Source: a virus | Reading direction: 5' to 3' (one strand) | Virus record (IMG/VR): IMGVR_UViG_3300045988_138852 | DNA: 35,436 nucleotides | Part shown: positions 1,073-35,309 of the stretch, in pieces | How positions within the stretch are numbered: position 1 is the first letter of the stretch | Layout: every line of letters starts with the position of its first letter | Notes under the pieces: model-generated | The model's input: only the letters and a program-made list of their open reading frames with translations | Told to the model about the DNA's origin: nothing | Database searches by the model: none | Position numbers and translations under genes: made by a program

Positions 1073-1598
1073 AAAAATAACAGGCGATTACAGACAGTAC
1101 ATGGATAAGGACTTTATTGGCGAATGGGATTTGCCGGAAAACGATGACTTAATTGTCGAGATAGATCACGCAGAGGTTAACCAGGTCAAAAGCGAACGTG
1201 GATCAGAAGAAAAACTCTGCATACACTTCAAGGGTGGCTACAAGCCATTAATCATCAATGCAACGAATGGAGGGGCGATAAAAGATGCGCTCGGAACGGG
1301 GAAGGTCGAGAGATGGGAAGACAAAAGAATTTCCCTGTACCGCGAGCGCGTGTCAGCTTTTGGCAAGACAGTAATGGCTGTCAGGGTAAGACCATTTGCA
1401 CCTAAGCAAGATGAATATTTCTGTGATGAGTGCGGATGCCAAATTACAGATGAAGGTAAGTACACGGCAAGGGCTATTGCGCAGAGTTCGAAGAGTAAAT
1501 TTGGACGAACACTTTGCATGGATTGTGCAAAGCAAGTCAAAGCAGAGCAGGAGAAGGCAGATTTAGAGGGAGACATATTAAACGATGAGAATAACTAA
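1059..1598 (+). CDS. Hypothetical protein with C-terminal CxxC...CxxC zinc-ribbon
   Basis: ATG 1059 after aaaggagagggtgg. C-terminal CDECGC...CMDC cysteine pairs. Confidence 0.55.
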   Translation: MSTNKKITGDYRQYMDKDFIGEWDLPENDDLIVEIDHAEVNQVKSERGSEEKLCIHFKGGYKPLIINATNGGAIKDALGTGKVERWEDKRISLYRERVSAFGKTVMAVRVRPFAPKQDEYFCDECGCQITDEGKYTARAIAQSSKSKFGRTLCMDCAKQVKAEQEKADLEGDILNDENN

Positions 1599-3015
1599 GA
1601 TTAAGATTAAAAATTTGTTTGGAATCAGTGAAACCGAACTTGACGGAAGAAATATAGAGCTATCTGGCTCAAACGGTACAGGAAAAACATCCGTGATTGA
1701 TGCAATTAGATATGCTCTAACAAATCAGTCTGATAGAGATTACATCATACGAAATGGCGAAAAAGAGGGCGAGATACTAATTGAGGCAGGTGCAGACCTG
1801 TATATCAACAGAAAGAAGCGCACGGATAAGGCTGATTATAAGTCGGTCAAAGAAGCTGGCCGAGAAATAGGTAGCCCTGAGTCGATGCTCAAGACACTAT
1901 TCACACCACTGCAGCTCAACCCTGTCGAGTTTACTCAGATGACAAAGGCAGAGCAGAACCGTGTAATCCTTGATCTGATTGAGTATGATTGGGACCTTAA
2001 CTGGATAAGGGAGCAGTTCGGAGAAATTCCTCCAAATGTTAATTATGAGCAAAATATTTTGCAGGTGCTGAATGATATCCAGTCAGAAAAGGGATATTAC
2101 TTTCAAGAGCGCCAGAACGTGAATCGCGATATCAGAAATAACAGGGCGTTGATTGAAGACATTTCAAAGGACATTCCGAGTGGATACCAGGCAGAAAAGT
2201 GGGAAGCATTTGATCTGTCAGCAAAGTATCACGAGCTCGAGAAGATAAGACAGAGCAACGATCTAATAATGCGAGCAAAAGCTTTCAAGGACTCGTTTGA
2301 CAATAAAATGAGAGGATATGAAGCTGAAAAAGAAATCAGCATCTCATCAAATGAGCGCGCTATTGCGTCAGAGAGAGAAAGCTTAAAGGCAAGCATAGAG
2401 AAGCTCAAAGCTGAGCAGTTCGCTGCGGAGGAAAAGCTGAAAGGGCTTGACGCAAAGTTAGAAGACAAGAACCGTGTTGCGATTGCCGAATTTGAGACAA
2501 AGGTTGCAAAGTTGCAAAAGGATATCGGTACTGCTAACGAATATATAGATAAGCCGATAGTTGATACTACTGCGTTATCGGACGAAATATCTACAGCAGA
2601 AGAGATGAAAAGACACTTAAACGAATACGCTCGCCTCAAGGCAAAGGAAGAAGAAACAGAGCAGCTTACGGAGGCATCAAATGAGTTTACAAGAAAGATT
2701 GAGCTTGCTCGTAAGCTTCCAGGCGAAATTCTTGAGACGGCTACACTGCCCGTTGCTGGTCTAACAGTTGAGAATGGAATTCCGCTTATAAATGGATTGC
2801 CAGTCACAAACTTATCCGAGGGCGAAAAGCTTGAGCTCTGTGTAGATGTGGCACTATCTAAACCAAACAGCCTGCAGGTTATCCTCATAGATGGTGTCGA
2901 AAGACTGTCAGATTCGAACCGTGAAAGGTTATACGCAAAGTGCAAAGAGAAGGGCTTGCAGTTTATTGCAACAAGAACAACCAACTCGGATGAACTCGAG
3001 ATTAATTATTTGTAA
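1585..3015 (+). CDS. SMC/Rad50/SbcC-like AAA ATPase (recombination/repair module)
   Basis: N-terminal Walker A (LSGSNGTGKTSVIDAIRYAL), long central coiled coil. C-terminal ABC-signature-like LSEGEKL and Walker B VILIDGVERLS. Confidence 0.75.
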   Translation: MRITKIKIKNLFGISETELDGRNIELSGSNGTGKTSVIDAIRYALTNQSDRDYIIRNGEKEGEILIEAGADLYINRKKRTDKADYKSVKEAGREIGSPESMLKTLFTPLQLNPVEFTQMTKAEQNRVILDLIEYDWDLNWIREQFGEIPPNVNYEQNILQVLNDIQSEKGYYFQERQNVNRDIRNNRALIEDISKDIPSGYQAEKWEAFDLSAKYHELEKIRQSNDLIMRAKAFKDSFDNKMRGYEAEKEISISSNERAIASERESLKASIEKLKAEQFAAEEKLKGLDAKLEDKNRVAIAEFETKVAKLQKDIGTANEYIDKPIVDTTALSDEISTAEEMKRHLNEYARLKAKEEETEQLTEASNEFTRKIELARKLPGEILETATLPVAGLTVENGIPLINGLPVTNLSEGEKLELCVDVALSKPNSLQVILIDGVERLSDSNRERLYAKCKEKGLQFIATRTTNSDELEINYL

Positions 3016-5149: not shown

Positions 5150-6978
5150 ATTTTACAAAAGAGGATTATCTGACATCAGTTGTACCATTTGAATACATCG
5201 AACAGAGCGATAATGCTCTGGAAAAGGAGCAGAGGAAAGCACTTGTTACAGAGCACGCTAAGTCTGTAGGAATTAAAAACTTTACAACGCTTTATAAAGC
5301 TTATTTAAAGATGCTTAAACAGATGGCAAGTAATGACTTGATATGCAACGCAACAAACTTTACAGGTCAGGAATTTGAGCTTGAAGTCGGCACATGGACA
5401 GCTGACGATGGTGGCATTTCAAGAGTAGGATATGGCGGAATGGAAGAAGTTGCATGCCCTCACCCTATCATGCCAGTGCTAAGGCTTGACAATGTAGACA
5501 CTGGGCTTGAAAAGATTAAGCTTGCATATCGTCGAGGTGCAGTTTGGAAAGATATTATTGTTGACCGCAAGCAGATTGCATCAAACAGTTCGATAGTCGG
5601 ACTAGCCGACTATGGAATTGCAGTCACCTCGGAGAACTCTAGAGCGCTTGTTAAGTATTTGCATGACGCAGAGAATCTAAACTTTGATGTAATACCAAGC
5701 AAGAAATCCGTAAGCCGTCTCGGATGGGTTGGAGACGATGGGTTTTCACCTTATGTTGATGGACTAGTGTTTGATGGAGAAGAAGCCTTTAAATCTTTTT
5801 TTAACAGCGTGAAGCAAAAAGGCAACAGTAAAAAATGGATGGACCTAGCGAAAGAAATCCGAAGTGGGGATAATCCAGCGCCTAAAATTTTATTAGTTGC
5901 AGCGTTTGCTTCGGTACTGGTTGAACCGTGCTCATGCCTACCCTTTTTCGTCCATGTTTGCGGTGGAACCGAGACAGGTAAAACTGTTGGATTAATGCTT
6001 GCAGCGTCAGTATGGGCTAACCCTGAGATGGGAAAGTACATCCATACGTTTAATTCAACTGCAGTAGCACAAGAGTTATCAGCTGGCTTTGTCAACTCAT
6101 TGCCCCTAATCCTGGATGAGCTCCAGATTATAAAAGATCGCAAAGATTTTGACCAGCTCATATATCAGTTGTCGGAAGGCGTAGGAAAGGCAAGAGGACA
6201 AAAGACCGGAGGTCTGCAGCGAAATGGAACTTGGGCGAACTGCATTATTACATCCGGAGAGCAGCCAATAACTTCGAATACATCTGGAGGGGGTGCGGTC
6301 AATAGAATCATTGAGATTAGCTGTGAGGATACAAAGCTATTCGATGATCCTGGACGCATAGTAAAGGTTGTTAAATCGAACTATGGACATGCAGGGAAGG
6401 AGTTCGTAAGAATCATTTCAGACGACTCTGTCATGCAAGAAGCAATCAATTTGCAACAGTTGTTTTTCAAGGAATTAAATCAGAAATCTACAGAAAAGCA
6501 AGCACTTGCAGCGAGTTTATTGCTGACGGCTGATGCAATCCTCGGCGAGTATATGTTCTTTGATAATGGTTCTATTGGTGTTGAGGATATGAAGGCATAT
6601 TTGTCAAGCAAGGAAGATGTGTCACAGAATATGCGAGCGTACGAGTGGCTCCAGGGATGGATTGCAGAGAATCATAATAGTTTTATCACTGATAACTATA
6701 CGCCATTGGGTAAAATCTACGGGAGAATCTCGAGTGGCGAAATAAATATTATACGAAATGTATTCAACTCGGCATGCTCAGAAAATGGATTCAATCCGGC
6801 TGAGTTCGCAAAATGGCTCAGCAGGAATAATCTGACTGATACCCTCCAAGGACGAGTCGACAAACAGATTAGAATCAGTGGAATAAGGTTTTGGACAATA
6901 GCTCTTCATGTGAATACTGAAGACAAAACATCTGAAAGCATTGGTTTTGTAGAGGTTCAAGAGGAAATACCGTTTTAA
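5137..6978 (+). CDS. DUF927-like SF3-type replicative helicase / replication initiator
   Basis: Walker A VCGGTETGKTVGLMLAASVW and Walker B LILDELQ. Size and position after the CHC2 protein are typical of phage primase-helicase modules. Confidence 0.65.
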   Translation: MGTIDFTKEDYLTSVVPFEYIEQSDNALEKEQRKALVTEHAKSVGIKNFTTLYKAYLKMLKQMASNDLICNATNFTGQEFELEVGTWTADDGGISRVGYGGMEEVACPHPIMPVLRLDNVDTGLEKIKLAYRRGAVWKDIIVDRKQIASNSSIVGLADYGIAVTSENSRALVKYLHDAENLNFDVIPSKKSVSRLGWVGDDGFSPYVDGLVFDGEEAFKSFFNSVKQKGNSKKWMDLAKEIRSGDNPAPKILLVAAFASVLVEPCSCLPFFVHVCGGTETGKTVGLMLAASVWANPEMGKYIHTFNSTAVAQELSAGFVNSLPLILDELQIIKDRKDFDQLIYQLSEGVGKARGQKTGGLQRNGTWANCIITSGEQPITSNTSGGGAVNRIIEISCEDTKLFDDPGRIVKVVKSNYGHAGKEFVRIISDDSVMQEAINLQQLFFKELNQKSTEKQALAASLLLTADAILGEYMFFDNGSIGVEDMKAYLSSKEDVSQNMRAYEWLQGWIAENHNSFITDNYTPLGKIYGRISSGEINIIRNVFNSACSENGFNPAEFAKWLSRNNLTDTLQGRVDKQIRISGIRFWTIALHVNTEDKTSESIGFVEVQEEIPF

Positions 6979-9697: not shown

Positions 9698-10021
9698 ATG
9701 GGTAATAGAACGAAAGCAATGAAATATATTGCAGATCACTATGGATACATGGGTCAGAAGGACATGCTGATAGAAGAATTGGCCGAACTCATACAAGCTC
9801 TTAACAAATTCGAGAGGTATGAGCACGAAAGCGGATTTCTTGCCAATCTGATTGAGGAAGTCGCTGACGTAGAGATCATGTTAACACAAGTCAAATATTT
9901 GCTAGGAATTAATGAGCGCGTAGAGCATGCAAAGTTTTTCAAAATCGATAGACAAATAAAGCGAATCGAGGAGGGAAGAACGGAGCGAGGTGATAGCCAT
10001 GATAGACTACGAACAGATTAA
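9698..10021 (+). CDS. MazG-like nucleotide pyrophosphohydrolase
   Basis: LIEELAELIQAL and LIEEVADVEIMLTQV (EExxE...ExxD metal-binding helices). Confidence 0.7.
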   Translation: MGNRTKAMKYIADHYGYMGQKDMLIEELAELIQALNKFERYEHESGFLANLIEEVADVEIMLTQVKYLLGINERVEHAKFFKIDRQIKRIEEGRTERGDSHDRLRTD

Positions 10022-10415
10022 GCAGCTTAAAGCATTGCGACGAGAAGCAGAGGGGTTAAAGTATTCTATCGACCATGCTAAGCCGGAAATAGTCACAGAC
10101 TACTACAAAGACTACCGAACGGGAAAAGGAATCCCTAAATCGCTTATAGGAGTCGATTTTGACTGGAAAGATATATCGAGTAGGGAGAGACGGTTAAAAC
10201 GCAAGCTAGACGAAATTAGCAAGCTAATTGAGACTATAGAAAAAGAGATAGAAGCTATAGGCGACCCGGACATGAGGACAATACTTCGGATGTACTACAT
10301 AGAGGAGCGTTCGCAGGAGGAAGTGGCAGATGTCATGCATTGTGACAGAACTACAGTATCTAAGAGATTGAAGAAACTTGCAACAAATGCAACAAAAAAG
10401 TGTGATATATTGTAA
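9999..10415 (+). CDS. Sigma-70 region-4-like HTH regulator, probable late-gene activator (ArpU/RinA/DUF1492-type position)
   Basis: ILRMYYIEERSQEEVADVMHCDRTTVSKRLKK is a region-4-type HTH. It is the last gene before the packaging module. ATG 9999 after aggtga. Confidence 0.55.
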   Translation: MIDYEQIKQLKALRREAEGLKYSIDHAKPEIVTDYYKDYRTGKGIPKSLIGVDFDWKDISSRERRLKRKLDEISKLIETIEKEIEAIGDPDMRTILRMYYIEERSQEEVADVMHCDRTTVSKRLKKLATNATKKCDIL

Positions 10416-10484
10416 CCAGTAAAAAGATGATTCTTGTATCTTAAAACTTTCACACATTTCACGTTTTTGATGTGATATATTGTA
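10401..10484 (+). repeat. Exact 14-nt direct repeat tgtgatatattgta (10401-10414 and 10471-10484), 70 bp apart
   Basis: Read directly. Related copies are tgtgatatt at 10568 and tgtgagatat on the minus strand at 10521-10530. Confidence 0.8.
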
Positions 10485-10543
10485 TTTAGCGAAAAGGGAA
10501 TTGTGGCTTCCTCAAAATTTATATCTCACATAATAACCAGCAG

Positions 10544-10570
10544 AAGGCGCCTATATATGGCGTCTTTTGT
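10544..10570 (+). terminator. Rho-independent terminator ending the early/middle operon
   Basis: aaggcgcc / ggcgtctt 8-bp stem (one G-U), 7-nt loop tatatat, T-rich tail. Confidence 0.6.
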
Positions 10571-10634
10571 GATATTTCCCAATATATTGTGGGTATATAG
10601 ATATTAGGCTATGTGTAGGCCCATATGTAGTGAC

Positions 10635-10664
10635 TTGTATTTGCCATTCATTGAATGGTAAAAT
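10635..10664 (+). promoter_or_regulatory. Sigma-70-type promoter with extended -10 for the Panacea cassette
   Basis: ttgtat (10635-10640), 18-nt spacer, tg-g-taaaat (-10 at 10659-10664). Confidence 0.45.
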
Positions 10665-10706
10665 AGTCTATACATAGCATTATGTTTTGATAGAGAGGAG
10701 GCCGAC

Positions 10707-11165
10707 ATGAAAAGAACAGTTTTTGATGTAGCAAATTGGTTTCTGTCAAAGGAAAGCATGACACCAAAGAAGTTACAAAAGCTAGTTTATTATGCGTATT
10801 CTTGGTACCTAACGCTTGTTAATGAAAGCAAGGACGATTTGACGGCTAAACTATTCACCTCGCGTCTCGAAGCATGGGTCCACGGCCCAGTTTTCCCAGA
10901 ACTTTACCAAAAATATAAGGGATATAGTGGCGAAGCTATAGAACTATATGATGGAGTAATAGAAGAATTCAATGAGGATGCAAAAGATATTCTTGACCAG
11001 GTTTGGGAAGTGTATGGTGGATATACAGGCAATCAGCTGGAGAGCATTACTCACAGAGAGTCACCTTGGCTCAATGCAAGAGGTGGATGCAGCACATATG
11101 AGATATGCACTAACGAAATAAGTGATGCTGATATTTTTGATTGCTATATAGAGAGAGTATCCTAA
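10707..11165 (+). CDS. Panacea-domain (DUF4065, SocA/GepA-like) protein; PanA-type antitoxin candidate
   Basis: PKKLQKLVYYAYSWYLTL ... LEAWVHGPVFPELYQKY matches the DUF4065 core. Strong RBS gagaggagg. Confidence 0.75.
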   Translation: MKRTVFDVANWFLSKESMTPKKLQKLVYYAYSWYLTLVNESKDDLTAKLFTSRLEAWVHGPVFPELYQKYKGYSGEAIELYDGVIEEFNEDAKDILDQVWEVYGGYTGNQLESITHRESPWLNARGGCSTYEICTNEISDADIFDCYIERVS

Positions 11166-11169
11166 CGCC

Positions 11170-11745
11170 GTGTCAAAAAAGGGTAAGTCAAAAAAAAGAA
11201 AAGTTAATAACAGGGAAGACGGCAAGGCTAATGTAAAGAACCTTAACGAACCAAAGAATGAAGAAAAGGGACTAAAATTCGATTTTTCTTTTGAAGCCCT
11301 GTACTACTCAGTGAGATTGAGTAAAGGCAAATTCAATAATTACCTAAAGAGCGAAGGGGAATTTATCGATAAGTTTAGGCAGATAAGAAGCATAAATGCA
11401 AAGTTAAAAAACAAGGCGTTTAGCGAGGTCAAAAATGATCCAGGAGCCCATTTCCATGTAGTTAGCGGTGAAGAAAGAGATATCGTTACTAACTGTGTTG
11501 GTCACGCCTTATCCAATTTTGACGAATCATGCAATGTGTCGAATTTTATTGAGCAACTATTAGGTAACGAAACTATATATCAAATAGGACTCAATAAAGG
11601 CGTCAGAGTAATAGGGACATATAACGAGGAGACATTTAGGGTTTACCTAATCGATTACCATCACAGACTGTATTACAACCAAAGTAAAAATACGCATGGG
11701 GAAAAGGAACTGACCTTTTGTCCGATGAAAAGTGAATTAACCTAA
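11170..11745 (+). CDS. Unassigned 191-aa protein coupled to the Panacea gene; toxin/effector candidate
   Basis: A 576-nt open frame in a roughly 33-37% GC stretch. GTG start 4 nt after the upstream stop, and no in-frame ATG until near the C-terminus. Lys-rich N-terminus. C-terminal VRVIGTYNEETFRVYLIDYHHRLY. Confidence 0.6.
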   Translation: MSKKGKSKKRKVNNREDGKANVKNLNEPKNEEKGLKFDFSFEALYYSVRLSKGKFNNYLKSEGEFIDKFRQIRSINAKLKNKAFSEVKNDPGAHFHVVSGEERDIVTNCVGHALSNFDESCNVSNFIEQLLGNETIYQIGLNKGVRVIGTYNEETFRVYLIDYHHRLYYNQSKNTHGEKELTFCPMKSELT

Positions 11746-11773
11746 AGACACTTCGAAAGAGGTGTCTTTTTTC
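11744..11773 (+). terminator. Rho-independent terminator closing the Panacea cassette
   Basis: aaagacac / gtgtcttt 8-bp stem, 10-nt loop, tttttt tail. Confidence 0.65.
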
Positions 11774-11810
11774 ATACTTACAAAACAGACGAAAAGAGAG
11801 GTGGTGAGGC

Positions 11811-12506
11811 TTGGCTGAAAAATATGAACTAGCAAAACAAGATTATATGAACGGCATGAAATACAAAGACATTGCCGAGAAATATGGCGTTAGTCTCAAC
11901 ACTGTCAAGTCGTGGAAGAAGAGATATAACTGGGAGCGAAAAGGGTGCACACAAAAAAAGAAAAAGGGTGCACACAAAAACTCGATTGCGCAACTCGGGA
12001 ACAAAAATGCGACAGGAGCCCCAAAGGGGAACAAGCGAGCTGAGAAATTTGGGTTCTTCTCCAGATTCTTGCCAGAGGAAACTCTTGAGATTGTACATGC
12101 TGTTGACCAGGCAAGTCCACTCGATTTATTGTGGCACCAGATACAGCTTGCTTATGCTGCGATTATAAGAGCACAAAGGATTGCTTATGTTGAAGACCAA
12201 AGAGACAAGACAGTCGAGCAGGTCGAAGCCAAGGCAGGAGCTACGATAGGGTCTAAGTGGGAAGTGCAGCAGGCTTGGGATAAGCAAAATAACTTTCTCA
12301 AAGCACAAGCTAGAGCCCAGGGTGAATTAAGGAACCTGATTAAGCAATATGACGAGATGCTGCATAGGGATTGGGACCTTGCTACAGAGGAACAGAAGGT
12401 GCGAATTGCGAAGCTTAAAGCTGAGACGAGCAGAATAGGTGGAGATGATGAAGTTGAGTTCTTAGATGATATAGAGGGGGATGTATATGGCGATAATAAG
12501 GCGTAA
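11811..12506 (+). CDS. terS: Terminase small subunit (N-terminal HTH)
   Basis: TTG start after ggtggtgagg. YKDIAEKYGVSLNTVKSWKKRYNW is an HTH typical of phage terS. Directly precedes terL with overlap. Confidence 0.7.
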   Translation: MAEKYELAKQDYMNGMKYKDIAEKYGVSLNTVKSWKKRYNWERKGCTQKKKKGAHKNSIAQLGNKNATGAPKGNKRAEKFGFFSRFLPEETLEIVHAVDQASPLDLLWHQIQLAYAAIIRAQRIAYVEDQRDKTVEQVEAKAGATIGSKWEVQQAWDKQNNFLKAQARAQGELRNLIKQYDEMLHRDWDLATEEQKVRIAKLKAETSRIGGDDEVEFLDDIEGDVYGDNKA

Positions 12507-29623: not shown

Positions 29624-31054
29624 ATGTTACACGGAATTGATATTTCGGGCTGGCAGGAAGGAATACAGCTAGCAAATGTACCCGCAGATTTTGTAATAAT
29701 TAAAGGAACAGGCGGTGCCGGATATGTATCGGCAGAGTGTGACGGATTTGTGCAACAAGCAAAAGCAGCAGGAAAGCTAATCGGAGTATACCACTTTGCT
29801 CGCGAGGTTGGTTTTGGTGGCACTCCTGAAGAGGAAGCACAGTGGTTTGTAGATAACTGCGGTACATATTTCGATGGCACGGTTATTCCCGTGCTAGACT
29901 TTGAGCAGGATGTATATTTGGGCGCAGAATGGGCAAACGCTTGGCTCGATGCAGTTTATAACCTTATAGGCGTAAAACCTTTATTTTATAGCTATTTAAG
30001 TTTCATAGAAAGTCACGATTGCAGTGCTATAGCTAACGCAGACTATGGATTATGGGTAGCCCAGTACGACCACAACAATGCAACCGGATATCTCGAAAAG
30101 GCTGCACCATATGTGCCATACTGGAGCGTTGTTGCAATGCATCAGTACACATCGCATGGATACCTAAGTGGATACAGCAAAAGACTTGATCTTGATGTAT
30201 TTTATGGCGATGCAGATACATGGTATGCATATGCGAGGAAGCAGGGCGAAAAAGCAACGCAAGTTGTTACAACAAAACCTAAGCAAGTCGATATTGGTGC
30301 AGAGGTCATCAAATACGCAGGAGATGACAGATATGCAACATCTGATATAATAGACAAGGAGTTTGCAAAAGCAAATAAGGTGATTGTTTCAGGTAAAAAC
30401 TTCCCTGATGGAATAAGCGCAGCATTTCTTGCAAAAGCAAATAAGGCGAACATAGTGCTAGATCACCCCGAGTTATCTTACGGGTTCGAAACATATATTG
30501 TTGGTGGCGATATAGTAAACAAGGGTGGAGCAAAAGTAATAAAGGGAGATACTAGATACGATACAAATCTAGAAGTTCTGAAAGAATGCTTTTCAAAGAC
30601 AAAATCAATCATTGTTACTAATGGTAGCGATTGGGCTGATGGCGTATCCACACTTACGACAAATATTCCAGTGCTTATAGTCTCTGAGTTCGTAAAAGCA
30701 AATCAGATCGTAGAACTAAAAAAACACAATGATTTACATTTCATCATTGTGGGCGATACAGGTGTTGTTAATACTACTGTAGAAAAGCAGCTCGCTGAGA
30801 TTGGTAGCGTCGAAAGAGTCAAAGGCGCAGATAGATTTGAAACGTCGAGAAAAATTGCAGAGCATTTTTTCCCATCAGCTGAAGAGGCTATTGTAGTTGC
30901 TTCATGGGCCGACGCAATCGTGTCAAGCAACATAGGTGAAATGCCTATACTTCTTATAGGAGAAAATAATACATCTGAAGCAAGGGCATATATTACATCT
31001 CATGGGGTGAAGAGAGCATATGTTGTTGGGCTTGCTTGTGAGCTTGTTGTATAG
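29624..31054 (+). CDS. Endolysin: GH25 muramidase plus three CWB2 cell-wall-binding repeats
   Basis: MLHGIDISGWQ...FVIIKGTGG is a GH25 start. Three repeats each have a D(R/T)(Y/F)xT motif (GDDRYATSD, GDTRYDTNL, GADRFETSR). Confidence 0.9.
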   Translation: MLHGIDISGWQEGIQLANVPADFVIIKGTGGAGYVSAECDGFVQQAKAAGKLIGVYHFAREVGFGGTPEEEAQWFVDNCGTYFDGTVIPVLDFEQDVYLGAEWANAWLDAVYNLIGVKPLFYSYLSFIESHDCSAIANADYGLWVAQYDHNNATGYLEKAAPYVPYWSVVAMHQYTSHGYLSGYSKRLDLDVFYGDADTWYAYARKQGEKATQVVTTKPKQVDIGAEVIKYAGDDRYATSDIIDKEFAKANKVIVSGKNFPDGISAAFLAKANKANIVLDHPELSYGFETYIVGGDIVNKGGAKVIKGDTRYDTNLEVLKECFSKTKSIIVTNGSDWADGVSTLTTNIPVLIVSEFVKANQIVELKKHNDLHFIIVGDTGVVNTTVEKQLAEIGSVERVKGADRFETSRKIAEHFFPSAEEAIVVASWADAIVSSNIGEMPILLIGENNTSEARAYITSHGVKRAYVVGLACELVV

Positions 31055-31346: not shown

Positions 31347-32453
31347 TTATATCTTGATTTTGTCTAAAACTTTAACAGCTTTCTCCTGTTCTGCAGGATA
31401 AAAATGGCTATATCTATTTAATGTCTGTTCAATATTTTTATGTCCGAGCCGTCGGCTAATCTCTAAAATATTTATATTATTGTTAGCCAATAGCGAGGCG
31501 TGACTATGTCTAAAGTCATGGATTCTGATGTGATGTAGCCCTGCTCGTTTTGCTGCCTTTTTGTTCACGTTTTCTATGCTCGTGTCCCTAAGCGGTTTAT
31601 ATCCACCAGTTATGTAAAAGTTATCATTAAAGCCGTCAAAATCCTTGCACTGAGCATAGTGCTGCTCAAGCACTCTTTTTAGAGGTTCAGGAACTTGTAA
31701 GGTGCGATTGCTACTCATATTCTTAGGTGGTGTTTCACGGTCCCCTCCGGATAGTTTTTGTGATATGCTTTTGCTAATGGTTATAGCGCCGTCTTTATAA
31801 TCTGACCACCTAAGGGCGTGTATTTCGCCTTTTCTCGCTCCTGTAAAATAAGCAAGCATAAAGAACACATAATAGTCATAAAAACCTTTCTCAAGAGCGA
31901 TTTCGCGGACGTAAACTATATATCGCTTGAACTCATTTGGTGTATAGAATTGTATTACATCTTTCCCTTTATATGGATTCCTGAAATTACCGACCTTATT
32001 TAAAGGATTGCTCTTAAGATATTCTTTTGATACGGCCCAATTCAAAATAGACCTAAATTGACCGTAGATGTTTTTCTTCATAGTGTGGGATAATGGCAAA
32101 TTACCTATTGATAGCTTCCATTCGTTTAGTCTTCGCACGCTAAGTTTATTTAAGCGAATGTCCAAAGGGTAAATGTATTTATAAGTAATTCCCTTAGCTT
32201 TTTTCAGTGTCGATTCCCTTACATCAATTTGTTTAAATTCAAAATATAATTCAATTAGATCCTGGAGCATCATATTGCTATGAACTTGCTCATTTTTGTT
32301 CCTATTTAGTTTTGCTTCTAATTCTTTTGCTGCTGTAAGACCGTAAGCTATACGCGTGAAAGAACGATTTTTGCCACTGTCATCAACATAATTTATTCTT
32401 ACTCTGTATTTAGAAAGCCCATCTTTTTTTTTCTTTGTTTTGTAAATTGGCAT
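31347..32453 (-). CDS. int: Tyrosine recombinase (phage integrase)
   Basis: C-terminal HDFRHSHASLL...LGHKNIEQTLNRYSHF (R, HxxR and Y catalytic residues). ATG at 32453 lies 7 nt after aaggagg. Confidence 0.9.
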   Translation of the reverse strand: MPIYKTKKKKDGLSKYRVRINYVDDSGKNRSFTRIAYGLTAAKELEAKLNRNKNEQVHSNMMLQDLIELYFEFKQIDVRESTLKKAKGITYKYIYPLDIRLNKLSVRRLNEWKLSIGNLPLSHTMKKNIYGQFRSILNWAVSKEYLKSNPLNKVGNFRNPYKGKDVIQFYTPNEFKRYIVYVREIALEKGFYDYYVFFMLAYFTGARKGEIHALRWSDYKDGAITISKSISQKLSGGDRETPPKNMSSNRTLQVPEPLKRVLEQHYAQCKDFDGFNDNFYITGGYKPLRDTSIENVNKKAAKRAGLHHIRIHDFRHSHASLLANNNINILEISRRLGHKNIEQTLNRYSHFYPAEQEKAVKVLDKIKI

Positions 32454-32493
32454 GGCAACCTCCTTGATTTTGGGTACAAAAATACCCCTACAT

Positions 32494-32522
32494 TTGACAT
32501 TCAGGGGCTGCAATGGTACAAT
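32494..32522 (+). promoter_or_regulatory. Near-consensus sigma-70 promoter, divergent from int
   Basis: TTGACA (32494-32499), 17-nt spacer, TG-g-TACAAT (-10 at 32517-32522). Confidence 0.55.
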
Positions 32523-33411: not shown

Positions 33412-34047
33412 TTAAAACATTGAAATCGTTGAGTGGAATACACCAACGCACTCTCCTATTACAGTCATCCCCTCGGCATCGGTTACAATCGGCTCATAGT
33501 CTGCGTTGCATGGGTTGAGTATGATTGTATCCTCTTGCCAAAATACCTTTTTAAGAACAGCTTCGCAGTCAGAGTTAATCCGTACTGCATAGATTTTGCC
33601 ATTCGTATAGTCATAAGTCTTTTTGATAAAAGCTAGATCACCGTTAAATATTCCAGCATCAATCATGCTATCACCACGGACACGCACGCAAAAATCTGCT
33701 TTTACTGAGCTGTCTATAAAAAAGTGTCCTTCAAAGTTCTCTTCGCACCAGGTTCCTTCTCCAGCACAAATATCGCCTAGAATTGGAATAGGGCGAGAAG
33801 CTGGAAACGAAATGTTGCTTATACCTGTGAGGTCAGGGTCAACAGAGTGATTATCATCTGACGTCAATTCTTCAATTGTTACGCCTAGAATATCAGCAAC
33901 CTTTTTAACTGTACCAATAGGAGGGCTTGATGTACCATCTTCCCATTTTTGAATTGTTGTAAATGATTTATAGCCAAGTTTATCAGCAAGAGCCTCTTGA
34001 GAAATTCCTCTTAATTTCCTGTAGAATCTTATTTTATCTTTAAACAT
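33412..34047 (-). CDS. CI-like repressor: XRE HTH plus S24 (LexA-like) autopeptidase
   Basis: N-terminal FYRKLRGISQEALADKLGY...TIQKWEDG HTH. C-terminal VRGDSMIDAGIFNGDLAFIKK (Ser) and AVLKKV (Lys). Confidence 0.9.
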   Translation of the reverse strand: MFKDKIRFYRKLRGISQEALADKLGYKSFTTIQKWEDGTSSPPIGTVKKVADILGVTIEELTSDDNHSVDPDLTGISNISFPASRPIPILGDICAGEGTWCEENFEGHFFIDSSVKADFCVRVRGDSMIDAGIFNGDLAFIKKTYDYTNGKIYAVRINSDCEAVLKKVFWQEDTIILNPCNADYEPIVTDAEGMTVIGECVGVFHSTISMF

Positions 34048-34062
34048 AATCACCTCTATGTA

Positions 34063-34447: not shown

Positions 34448-34657
34448 ATGAAAGAAGAAAAGAAATTAGTATCAGCGGTAAGACCACGTGGAACTGATGA
34501 GGCCTGCGTAATACAAGTTATAAGGACAAAATCGCTTGTAGGCGCAGGCACTCCTGATGATTTATCTAAAATAATGGTTCAATACTGGGATTTTGAAGGA
34601 AATCTATTGGCTACTTCGTATCACCAGCAAGCTTTCTCGAAACAGGCGGATGCTTAA
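34448..34657 (+). CDS. Hypothetical early protein (69 aa)
   Basis: ATG 34448 after gaaaggaggaggg. Its 3' end overlaps the convergent gene by 47 nt. Confidence 0.45.
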   Translation: MKEEKKLVSAVRPRGTDEACVIQVIRTKSLVGAGTPDDLSKIMVQYWDFEGNLLATSYHQQAFSKQADA

Positions 34658-35309
34658 TCATATATTGAACCTCAATAGACTTTATGAAGATTTCCATGTA
34701 ATTCTTCAGAAGAGCAAAATCGTGTTCGGGATACTTGCGTTTGTAGTGAGTGTAATCATTTCCGAGAATGCGAACAACATCAGCACTATTGGTTAGCGCT
34801 TCGTTAGGTAGATAGCTGGAAATGGCATCAAACAAGGTTTTATTTACGACTTCATCCTCGGGTTTTCCGAGTTCGTGAATAGCAAAGTCCTTTATCAGAA
34901 CCTCAAGTGCAGAACGATAGCCTATAGCAGCAAGCTCTAAAGAACCAGCGAACTCTGACCTTTCGGCTTGATTGTAAATATACATGAACCTTTTGGATAA
35001 AGCTCGTAGGTTGTCGTTATCGAATAGTTCGACATTGGATTCAGGGTAAACAAAAATGTTTTTTGCATCAGTAGGTTCATCTAAACGACGATCTGATATT
35101 GACAGAGTTTGTTTGCCACAATCAGTGCACTTGTACATTCCAACCAAGAACCAACTAGTATCGGATTGAACAACAGCAGATGTAGACAAAATGAAATCAG
35201 TTGAAATTCCACAATGTGGACAAATGATGGGTTTTTCATAACCAAAAGAATAATAAGCCGAGTATTCTGAAGCGGATTTGACAGTGAATTTTTTATAACT
35301 TCTTTTCAT
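34611..35309 (-). CDS. Zinc-ribbon plus DUF4145-like domain protein (defence/abortive-infection candidate)
   Basis: N-terminal CPHC...CTDC. C-terminal helical domain with AIGYRSALEVLIKDF and VRILGNDYTHY (the R..GN...H motif of DUF4145). aaggaga RBS. Confidence 0.7.
   Translation of the reverse strand: MKRSYKKFTVKSASEYSAYYSFGYEKPIICPHCGISTDFILSTSAVVQSDTSWFLVGMYKCTDCGKQTLSISDRRLDEPTDAKNIFVYPESNVELFDNDNLRALSKRFMYIYNQAERSEFAGSLELAAIGYRSALEVLIKDFAIHELGKPEDEVVNKTLFDAISSYLPNEALTNSADVVRILGNDYTHYKRKYPEHDFALLKNYMEIFIKSIEVQYMIKHPPVSRKLAGDTK

What the first reader, a model, noticed from the sequence alone, without database searches (positions are those of the whole stretch)
10635..11773. Self-contained moron cassette: Panacea (DUF4065) protein translationally coupled to an unassignable 191-aa partner, a candidate novel PanA-toxin / abortive-infection pair
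Seen in sequence:
(1) 10707..11165 encodes a 152-aa protein whose core (PKKLQKLVYYAYSWYL ... LEAWVHGPVFPELYQKY) matches the Panacea/DUF4065 (SocA/GepA-like) domain.
(2) Four nt after its stop, a 191-codon frame opens with GTG. It has no usable SD and no in-frame ATG until near the C-terminus. This is a termination-reinitiation layout typical of toxin-antitoxin pairs.
(3) The pair has its own extended -10 promoter (10635-10664). It is bracketed by hairpin/T-tract terminators (10544-10570 and 11744-11773).
(4) It sits in the classic moron slot between the late regulator and terS.
(5) Two hand-counted 60-nt lines of the partner gene give 33% and 37% GC. Hand-counted head-gene lines give 48-52%.
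Established knowledge: Panacea-domain proteins act as antitoxins for many unrelated toxin families (PanAT systems).
Inference: the 191-aa protein is the toxin or effector. It has a Lys-rich, probably disordered N-terminus, then a domain I cannot place. Its C-terminal VRVIGTYNEETFRVYLIDYHHRLY has a RelE/ParE-like strand-turn-strand-H..Y look, but this resemblance is weak.
Basis: partly seen in the sequence, partly recalled or inferred. Interest (0 to 1): 0.8.

Follow-up and report, generated by a model that had tools for sequence, protein, structure and literature searches.

The report
Phage PanA antitoxin with unknown partner
A temperate phage carries, in a swappable slot before its DNA-packaging genes, a two-gene cassette: a Panacea-type antitoxin gene followed by a gene from a small uncharacterised protein family that always sits next to such antitoxins and is therefore probably a new toxin; it extends a known kind of system rather than founding a new one.

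Summary
10707..11165 encodes a standalone Panacea/SocA protein (PF13274, E 1.9e-17). The GTG-started 191-aa ORF at 11170..11745 ("X") begins 4 nt after its stop. X has no Pfam, PADLOC or PDB sequence match.

X is not an orphan. A profile search found 131 clusters, mostly 160-220 aa, matching phrog_24206 and, distantly, NCBIfam MAG6450_fam. In all 15 independent contexts examined, a 150-165-aa standalone Panacea gene lies directly upstream.

Near-isogenic phages carry different cargo between the same regulator and terS:
- PanA+X
- another PanA plus a PemK/MazF toxin
- two other cassettes
- nothing

All cargo sits between two terminator hairpins.

A confident AlphaFold model (pLDDT 83) has no significant PDB match. 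RelE/YafQ/HigB toxins recur only as weak hits, and profile comparison with HigB is not significant.

Best reading: a PanAT-type toxin-antitoxin / abortive-infection moron with an uncharacterised toxin family (about 0.7). A RelE-like RNase mechanism is only a lead (about 0.35). Toxicity is untested. The GC contrast was overstated (36% against 41-44%).

Verdict: a new member of a known kind, of moderate interest.

The parts
10540..10572 (+). Hairpin 1 plus T-rich tail. It looks like an intrinsic terminator after the regulator gene and forms the left border of the cargo slot.
   Evidence: Folds at -18.7 kcal/mol, z -4.8. It is conserved in every slot variant, including the empty-slot phage L026. 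Sequences diverge right after it, at about 10573.
10573..11779 (+). The cassette as an insertion relative to empty-slot relatives: promoter, panA, X and hairpin 2.
   Evidence: In L026, hairpin 1 is followed directly by the terS ribosome-binding region, which corresponds to window 11780 onwards.
10635..10664 (+). Promoter-like site TTGTAT-N18-TGgTAAAAT, with an extended -10 element.
   Evidence: It is the only match in the window, against 0.08 expected. The motif is kept in cassettes L004, L001 and L022 with different spacers. No expression data exist.
10696..10701 (+). Shine-Dalgarno sequence AGGAGG for panA, 5 nt before the ATG.
   Evidence: Read directly from the sequence.
10707..11165 (+). 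panA: a 152-aa standalone Panacea (DUF4065/SocA-like) protein, the putative antitoxin or sensor.
   Evidence: PF13274 E 1.9e-17. phrog_1281 E 9e-41. It is 34-81% identical to the PanAs upstream of every X homologue.
11170..11745 (+). X: a 191-aa protein with a GTG start, the putative toxin/effector of an uncharacterised family. Residues 1-30 form a Lys-rich disordered tail. Residues 33-165 form an alpha/beta core. H94, D162 and H165 are invariant. N57, H96, Q138, G140, R146, G149, H164 and N174 are invariant or nearly so (at least 90% of sequences) in the alignments examined.
   Evidence: family and conserved residues. AF2 pLDDT 83.2. dN/dS 0.1-0.23. No Pfam, PADLOC or PDB sequence hit.
11744..11775 (+). 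Hairpin 2 plus T6 run. It looks like an intrinsic terminator and forms the right border. All cargo types in this slot share it.
   Evidence: Folds at -14.6 kcal/mol, z -4.5. It is identical or near-identical after the PanA+X, PanA+PemK, 59+201-aa and SDH-protease cassettes.

Best explanation
This is a PanAT-type two-gene toxin-antitoxin module carried as a moron by a temperate phage of a Clostridia-like host. Its most likely role is abortive infection or superinfection exclusion.

Proposed mechanism, all inferred:
- In the lysogen, the cassette's own promoter (10635-10664) drives a bicistronic mRNA that ends at hairpin 2.
- X is translated by coupling to panA (GTG 4 nt after the panA stop). 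X is therefore made only alongside, and probably in lower amount than, its neutraliser.
- The standalone Panacea protein binds X directly and holds it inactive, as shown for other standalone PanAs.
- A cue, probably an infecting phage or loss of PanA, frees X, which then arrests the cell.
- X is an enzyme. H94, D162 and H165 are invariant, and H96, R146 and H164 are invariant or nearly so, all on or next to a predicted beta-sheet, with a basic disordered N-terminal tail. The leading guess is a nuclease built like RelE/HigB/YafQ with a two-helix insertion.

What is shown: the gene pair, its strict synteny, its cassette nature and purifying selection. What is inferred: toxicity, neutralisation, the trigger and the RNase chemistry.
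For: The first gene is a Panacea protein.

X has a real family. There are 131 clusters at E<=1e-3, of which 60 are at E<=1e-10. X is under purifying selection, with dN/dS 0.1-0.23.

In 15 of 15 independent contexts, X homologues of 25-60% identity lie directly downstream of a 150-165-aa standalone Panacea gene. Most are tightly spaced or overlapping; L102 has an 85-nt gap. The contexts are:
- three phage backbones with different replication and terS modules
- Clostridium estertheticum chromosomes
- prophage lysis or integrase ends in Ornithinibacillus, Peptoanaerobacter stomatis and metagenomes
- a Mob_Pre/resolvase element
- a site next to recG
- Streptococcus satellite phages Javan218/219

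This meets the neighbourhood criteria that Kurata et al. 2022 (PMC8832971) used to predict PanAT loci. In that study the antitoxin-first order was the commoner one, 943 against 325.

Near-isogenic phages (regulator 73-100%, terS 93-100% identical) hold different cargo in the same slot: PanA+X, a different PanA plus a PF02452 PemK/MazF toxin, a 59+201-aa pair, an SDH protease plus a 64-aa protein, or nothing.

The window is a temperate phage. It has an integrase, an S24 CI-type repressor, and a GH25+CWB2 lysin.

Standalone Panacea neutralises its toxin directly in tested systems (PMC10440598).

For the RelE-like idea:
- The first AF2 model gave RelE, YafQ, YoeB and HigB chains as nearly all of its top 10 PDB hits (probability up to 0.93, target-normalised TM 0.43-0.54).
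- These families remain in the list for the confident model, at target-normalised TM 0.42-0.54 for the longer alignments.
- hhalign aligns X 136-164 (IYQIG..GVRVIG..FRVYLIDYH) with HigB 63-92 (..WRITF..YILNYEDYH).
Against: No experiment shows toxicity or neutralisation. In Kurata et al., 8 of the tested PanTs were not toxic in E. coli, and some PanAs failed to neutralise.

No statistically significant link to any known toxin exists.
- PADLOC gave 0 hits.
- Pfam gave no credible hit for the 61 members scanned; only scattered single-member chance matches appeared.
- A PDB profile search found nothing relevant.
- Foldseek's best E against PDB for the confident model was 0.22, to an unrelated protein.
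- hhalign against a HigB profile gave probability 0.13%; against YafQ 0.08%; against YoeB 0.07%.

The promoter is a motif match only. The generic scan found no more promoter-like sites in the region than chance, and it missed both hairpins.

A third conserved gene of 103-126 aa follows X in one branch of the family. The minimal unit and the identity of the toxic partner are therefore not certain for the whole family.
Confidence: 0.7

Rival explanations
1. The module is still a PanA-neutralised toxin, but X is not RelE-like. It is instead a metal-dependent nuclease or other hydrolase with a fold of its own. His/Asp, and in most members Cys, ligands would build a Zn or Mg site: HCH at 94-96, DYHH at 162-165, N174 and FCP at 183-185. 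The target would be DNA or another substrate rather than ribosome-bound mRNA.
For: The confident model (pLDDT 83) has no significant PDB neighbour. Its top hits are unrelated proteins: MCT-1, a nitroreductase and GNATs. All profile comparisons with RelE-type toxins are non-significant. The consensus HCH...IDYHH...N...FCP resembles a metal site.
Against: C95 is Phe in the window clade, and H96 is Arg in P0005, so the Cys/His cluster is not universal. Foldseek returned no HNH/His-Me or metallo-hydrolase hits. RelE-family chains are the only recurrent toxin fold in both Foldseek lists.
Confidence: 0.25
2. The pair is not a toxin-antitoxin system. Panacea acts as a sensor or adaptor and X is a non-toxic effector, for example an anti-defence or host-modifying enzyme used by mobile elements. 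The conserved synteny would reflect a two-subunit enzyme or a regulator-effector pair.
For: Ernits et al. 2023 propose that Panacea is primarily a sensor. Several predicted PanTs were non-toxic in E. coli. A conserved third gene in some loci hints at a larger functional unit.
Against: The same slot in sister phages holds a PanA+PemK pair. The pair sits at classic moron or defence positions: prophage ends, lysis modules, satellites and mobilisable elements. The tight antitoxin-first coupling is typical of type II TA systems.
Confidence: 0.12
3. X is an accessory packaging factor, such as an HNH-like endonuclease that works with terminase. It would lie next to terS for that reason.
For: X lies immediately upstream of terS/terL. 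It has conserved His, Asp and Asn residues. In L103 a terminase small-subunit gene lies about 2.5 kb downstream.
Against: Sister phages with 96-99% identical terS and 98-99% identical terL lack X altogether, or carry unrelated cargo or nothing in the slot. X homologues occur on chromosomes, beside recG, in a Mob_Pre element and after lysis genes, always with PanA and usually far from any terminase. A terminator separates X from terS. No HNH or terminase family hit was found.
Confidence: 0.02

Closest known systems
PanAT systems (Panacea/DUF4065 antitoxin with diverse PanT toxins; Kurata et al. 2022, PMC8832971; Ernits et al. 2023, PMC10440598)
   Same: A standalone Panacea protein is encoded first. 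A tightly coupled second gene follows. The two-gene synteny is conserved across taxa and mobile elements and occurs in temperate phages. Partner swapping is visible in sister phages, which carry PanA+PemK in the same slot.
   Different: The partner family has no detectable relation to any named PanT domain (MqsR, Fic/Doc, toxSAS, PemK/MazF, ParE, membrane toxins). It is not related to the MazF-like PanT of Listeria phage B025, a tested member of cluster T1 (hhalign probability 0.3%). I could not tell whether it is one of their 41 unannotated clusters. Nothing about it has been tested.
RelE/ParE superfamily ribosome-dependent mRNases (HigB PF05015, YafQ, YoeB)
   Same: The predicted strand and helix order is beta-alpha-alpha-beta...beta-beta-beta. 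A conserved Arg lies on the penultimate strand, and an Asp-Tyr-His motif ends the last strand, as in the HigB C-terminus ...YEDYH. These families recur as weak Foldseek hits, with target-normalised TM about 0.45-0.54.
   Different: X is twice the size. It has a roughly 30-aa basic tail, extra N-terminal elements, and a roughly 32-aa two-helix insertion between the HxH strand and the final sheet. No sequence-profile or Foldseek score is significant. Its partner is Panacea, not a HigA/DinJ/YefM-type antitoxin.
Phage morons and defence hotspots (promoter-gene-terminator cassettes between conserved phage genes; defence hotspots in P2/P4-like elements, from established knowledge)
   Same: The cassette is self-contained, with its own promoter-like site and terminator, between the late regulator and terS. 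Sister phages hold alternative cargo or nothing at the identical site.
   Different: Here the borders are two related terminator hairpins, and at least two of the cargo types are Panacea-based pairs. No defence phenotype is known.
NCBIfam NF046006 MAG6450 family / phrog_24206
   Same: 29 of 61 family members match MAG6450_fam over the C-terminal sheet and DYHH region (best E 4e-7). 46 of 61 match phrog_24206 (best E 1.3e-16).
   Different: Both are families of unknown function. MAG6450 is listed only as a conserved hypothetical protein of Mycoplasma agalactiae. The window protein itself scores below threshold for both (E 0.013 and 0.017).

Membership tests
PanAT (Panacea-antitoxin TA systems) | One gene encodes a protein with the Panacea/DUF4065 domain (PF13274) above Pfam's gathering threshold. 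| tested here: met
   64.6 bits against a cutoff of 25.7, E 1.9e-17, residues 23-121.
PanAT (Panacea-antitoxin TA systems) | [quoted passage not shown] | tested here: met
   The gap is 4 nt in the window. All 15 independent contexts keep PanA directly upstream of X, across Clostridium, Ornithinibacillus, Peptoanaerobacter, Streptococcus satellites and metagenomic phages. Loci have two genes, or three in one branch.
PanAT (Panacea-antitoxin TA systems) | Reciprocity: close relatives of the putative toxin are also found next to PanA. | tested here: met
   Every X homologue whose context could be read had PanA upstream. Only about 15 of the 131 clusters were sampled.
PanAT (Panacea-antitoxin TA systems) | The partner is toxic when expressed alone, PanA neutralises it, and the two form a complex. 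| not testable with these tools
   This needs a toxicity/neutralisation assay and a pull-down. No multimer prediction tool was available.
RelE/ParE superfamily toxin | A significant sequence-profile match to a RelE, ParE, HigB, YafQ or YoeB family. | tested here: not met
   Pfam gave no credible hit for 61 members. The PDB profile search found none. hhalign against a HigB profile gave probability 0.13%, E 0.43; against YafQ 0.08%; against YoeB 0.07%.
RelE/ParE superfamily toxin | The RelE fold: a small alpha/beta domain with an antiparallel sheet packed on two helices. | tested here: inconclusive
   For the low-confidence model, nearly all of the top 10 hits were RelE-type, with E>=0.05. For the confident model these hits had E 1.5-3 and probability at most 0.23, with target-normalised TM 0.42-0.54 for the longer alignments.
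RelE/ParE superfamily toxin | Ribosome-dependent mRNA cleavage, or gyrase poisoning in the case of ParE. | not testable with these tools
   This is a biochemical assay.
Phage moron | A gene or genes flanked by their own promoter and terminator, present in some but absent from other closely related phages at the same site. | tested here: met
   Presence, absence and replacement at the regulator-terS junction are shown. The promoter-like motif is, as sequence evidence only.

The most novel reading that the evidence does not exclude
X founds a toxin family with a fold and chemistry of its own, not a diverged RelE. It would be held in check by a standalone Panacea protein that senses an incoming phage, so the cassette would be a prophage-encoded abortive-infection system with a new effector mechanism. 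The variant with a third gene (Y, about 104 aa) would add a further regulatory or targeting layer.
Probability: 0.2. Interest if true: 0.65.

Novelty: new member of a known kind. Interest (0 to 1): 0.45.

Why it matters
Panacea antitoxins are known to pair with dozens of unrelated toxins, and many of those partners remain unannotated. This finding supplies one such partner family with several useful properties:
- defined boundaries
- a confident structure model with no close solved relative
- a short list of invariant residues to mutate
- a natural set of near-isogenic phages that differ only in the cargo of one slot

Those phages carry PanA+X, PanA+PemK, two other cassettes, or nothing. They form a ready-made system for testing what such cassettes do for a prophage and how cargo is exchanged between terminator-like borders. 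If X proves toxic with a new mechanism, it adds a new effector class to phage-encoded defence. If it proves RelE-like, it shows how far that fold can be elaborated.

Tried and rejected
- **Library scans of X.** Pfam, PADLOC and NCBIfam gave nothing significant for the window protein. PHROGs gave only a marginal match, phrog_38762 at E 5.8e-4.
- **PDB sequence searches.** Neither the single protein nor the 61-sequence profile found anything relevant.
- **First AF2 model.** An 8-sequence alignment gave pLDDT 54.8, too weak to trust. A 44-sequence alignment gave pLDDT 83.
- **Foldseek on the good model.** There was no significant PDB hit. BFVD gave one unnamed viral protein, D7RWK8, at E 4e-4.
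- **hhalign.** Comparisons of the family profile with a HigB profile, YafQ, YoeB and the B025 MazF-like PanT were all at probability below 0.4%.
- **MAG6450 literature.** It is listed only as a conserved hypothetical protein.
- **tblastn against 50,697 phage records.** Three family members found only the Streptococcus satellites Javan218 and Javan219.
- **GTDB species genomes.** The 61-sequence alignment was too diverse for pattern design. A 12-sequence subset found only Peptoanaerobacter stomatis.
- **Kurata et al. Dataset S1.** I looked for the accessions and species found here and found none, but the held copy is truncated, so this is inconclusive.
- **Positive selection in X.** I tested the variable middle of X and rejected it: dN/dS is 0.2-0.3 there. 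The pattern reflects intragenic recombination instead.
- **Rfam scan of 10300-11900.** No RNA family matched.
- **Packaging-accessory idea.** Rejected on presence/absence in sister phages and on non-phage contexts.
- **The third gene Y.** It is absent from the window.
Full report
**What is there**

The window is a temperate siphovirus-like genome. It has an integrase at 31347-32513(-), an S24/HTH CI-type repressor at 33412-34053(-), and a GH25 lysin with CWB2 repeats at 29624-31054. Replication genes lie upstream and a packaging-head-tail block lies downstream.

Two same-strand ORFs lie between the sigma-70 region 4 / DUF1492 regulator (9990-10415) and terS (11811-12506; phrog_509, E 5e-86).
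- 10707-11165 starts with ATG, is preceded by AGGAGG, and encodes 152 aa.
- 11170-11745 starts with GTG 4 nt after the first gene's TAA and encodes 191 aa.

The first protein is a standalone Panacea protein. It matches PF13274 at E 1.9e-17, well above the gathering score, and phrog_1281 at E 9e-41.

The second protein, called X here, matches nothing in Pfam, PADLOC or the PDB. Its only library signals are weak: phrog_38762 at E 5.8e-4 and NCBIfam MAG6450_fam at E 0.013.

**Regulatory signals**

Hairpin 10540-10570 reaches -18.7 kcal/mol (z -4.8). Hairpin 11744-11769 plus a T6 run reaches -14.6 kcal/mol (z -4.5). The generic terminator scan missed them because the T-run overlaps the stem.

The promoter-like TTGTAT-N18-TGgTAAAAT at 10635-10664 is the only such motif in the window, against 0.08 expected. 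It is retained with different spacers in diverged cassettes. It remains a sequence match only.

The claimed GC contrast is overstated. X is 36.3% GC and PanA 39.4%. The window averages 40.8%, and terS, terL and portal lie at 41.7-44.4%.

**X is a real gene with a real family**

A first word-indexed search found only 8 clusters, at 59-95% identity. A profile search of 1.84 billion representatives found 131 clusters at E<=1e-3, 60 of them at E<=1e-10. Most are 160-220 aa.

Across 61 and 44 diverse members, H94, D162 and H165 are invariant. N57, H96, Q138, G140, R146, G149, Y163, H164 and N174 are invariant or nearly so (at least 90% of sequences) in at least one of the two alignments. The N-terminal 30 residues or so are basic and variable.

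X is under purifying selection. dN/dS against three alleles is 0.1-0.23.

46 of 61 members match phrog_24206, and 29 of 61 match NCBIfam MAG6450_fam (best E 4e-7). Both families are of unknown function.

**Synteny, the key test**

I read the neighbourhood of X homologues of 25-60% identity in 15 independent settings. In every one, a 150-165-aa standalone Panacea gene lies directly upstream. Most are 1-4 nt apart or overlapping; one locus has an 85-nt gap. The settings were:
- phages with different replication and terS modules
- two Clostridium estertheticum chromosomal sites
- prophage lysis or integrase ends in Ornithinibacillus, Peptoanaerobacter stomatis and metagenomes
- a Mob_Pre/resolvase element
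- a site beside recG
- a MAG contig
- Streptococcus satellite phages Javan218/219

These PanAs form a coherent subfamily, 34-81% identical. This satisfies the operational criteria used to predict PanAT loci. The antitoxin-first order is the commoner one in that study (PMC8832971).

One branch of the family has a third, tightly coupled gene of 103-126 aa, called Y here. Y is homologous across loci, has no Pfam match, and is absent from the window.

**The slot is a cargo hotspot**

79 IMG/VR loci encode relatives of the regulator. Phages with near-identical regulator, terS and terL carry different cargo between them:
- PanA+X in 11 loci
- a different 179-aa Panacea protein plus a 103-aa PF02452 PemK/MazF toxin in 3 loci
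- a 59-aa plus 201-aa pair in 3 loci
- a PF01972 SDH-type protease plus a 64-aa protein in 2 loci

Relatives with a different terS have nothing in the slot.

Alignments place the left border just after hairpin 1, at about 10573. The right border is at hairpin 2, which all four cargo types share. The empty-slot phage goes straight from hairpin 1 to the terS ribosome-binding site, which corresponds to window 11780.

A PanA+PemK pair in the same place puts X in the toxin position by analogy.

**What X might do**

With a 44-sequence alignment, AlphaFold2 gives a confident model: pLDDT 83.2, pTM 0.76, and core blocks above 90. The element order is beta(36-38), alpha(62-79), alpha(84-88), beta(93-98), alpha(100-117), alpha(123-131), beta(136-141), beta(146-152), beta(155-162).

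Foldseek finds no significant PDB neighbour; the best E is 0.22. In BFVD there is one unnamed viral protein at E 4e-4.

RelE-type toxins (YafQ, YoeB, HigB, RelE, HP0894) made up nearly all of the top 10 hits for the earlier low-confidence model (E>=0.05). They persist for the good model at E 1.5-3, with target-normalised TM 0.42-0.54 for the longer alignments.

hhalign against a HigB profile picks the register I would draw by eye. X 136-164 aligns with HigB 63-92, so R146 pairs with R73 and D162-Y-H164 pairs with D90-Y-H92. The probability is only 0.13%. YafQ and YoeB do no better.

The RelE-like RNase idea is therefore a lead, not a result. A metal-dependent nuclease with its own fold is a live alternative. 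The consensus HCH...IDYHH...N...FCP would suit one, although C95 is Phe in the window clade.

**Comparison with what is known**

This is a PanAT-type module (PMC8832971). For standalone Panacea antitoxins, direct neutralisation has been shown, and a sensory role has been proposed (PMC10440598).

Membership in PanAT is met for the domain, spacing, conservation and reciprocity criteria. It is untestable here for toxicity and complex formation.

Membership in the RelE/ParE superfamily is not met at sequence level and is inconclusive at fold level.

I could not determine whether X is one of the 88 PanT clusters already listed. The held copy of their dataset is truncated and contains none of the species or accessions found here. 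X is not related to the MazF-like PanT of Listeria phage B025, one tested member of their large cluster T1.

**Verdict**

It is a new, or at least uncharacterised, toxin partner in a known kind of system, sitting in a well-defined, exchangeable phage cargo slot. Interest is moderate. The main value lies in the testable toxin family and the natural set of slot variants.

Noticed in passing
window 10573-11779; loci L019, L022, L036, L037, L052, L055, L057, L063, L026: Near-isogenic phages carry alternative cargo at the same regulator-terS junction. The cargo types are PanA(179 aa)+PemK/MazF toxin, a 59-aa plus 201-aa pair with no Pfam hit, an SDH-type ClpP-like protease (286 aa) plus a 64-aa protein, or nothing. 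This is a cargo or defence hotspot.
   Followed up: partly
window 10540-10572 and 11739-11779; L019 about 5515-5545: The two border hairpins resemble each other (AAGGCGCC..GGCGTCTTTTGTG against AAGACAC..GGTGTCTTTTTTC), and the right one is shared by all cargo types. The PanA+PemK cassette of L019 keeps about 20 nt identical to the 3' end of X (GAAAGTGAAaTAACCTAAAG) after its own stop codon. That suggests one cargo replaced another by recombination inside the cassette.
   Followed up: partly
window 10401-10450 and 10471-10520: A direct repeat lies 70 nt apart, with an exact 14-nt core TGTGATATATTGTA. The first copy is the last codons of the regulator gene (..KKCDIL*). The second copy is conserved even in relatives whose regulator ends differently. 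It looks like a scar of regulator C-terminus allele exchange, or a regulator or late-promoter site.
   Followed up: partly
window 11170-11745 compared with L004 and L061: In cassettes where PanA is 97-99% identical (dS 0.03-0.10), X is only 82-84% identical (dS 0.41-0.47). In L004, dS is about 0.9-1.2 across codons 36-135, yet the last 56 codons are identical. This points to intragenic mosaic recombination, not positive selection (dN/dS about 0.2).
   Followed up: yes
L011 4532-4849, L013 4495-4809, L015 4537-4917, L017 1566-1877, L100 1435-1758: In one branch of the X family, a third conserved gene of 103-126 aa with no Pfam hit is tightly coupled downstream of X, giving a three-gene PanA-X-Y variant. 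Y is absent from the window.
   Followed up: partly
window 10416-10572, and the empty-slot locus L026: In the empty-slot relative, only a terminator hairpin separates the regulator gene from terS, with no room for a promoter. Late transcription must therefore read through hairpin 1. The regulator has a weak Phage_antitermQ match (E 0.001) besides its sigma-70 region 4 match, so it may act as an antiterminator.
   Followed up: no
window 34611-35309 (-): A 232-aa protein with DUF4145 and a zinc-ribbon lies beyond the CI repressor at the end of the element. It may be another accessory or defence-type gene.
   Followed up: no
window 1585-3015 (+): A 476-aa AAA ATPase lies in the early region. It has weak AAA_15, AAA_21 and AAA_23 matches, which are families that include AbiEii/OLD-type proteins. 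It was not examined further.
   Followed up: no
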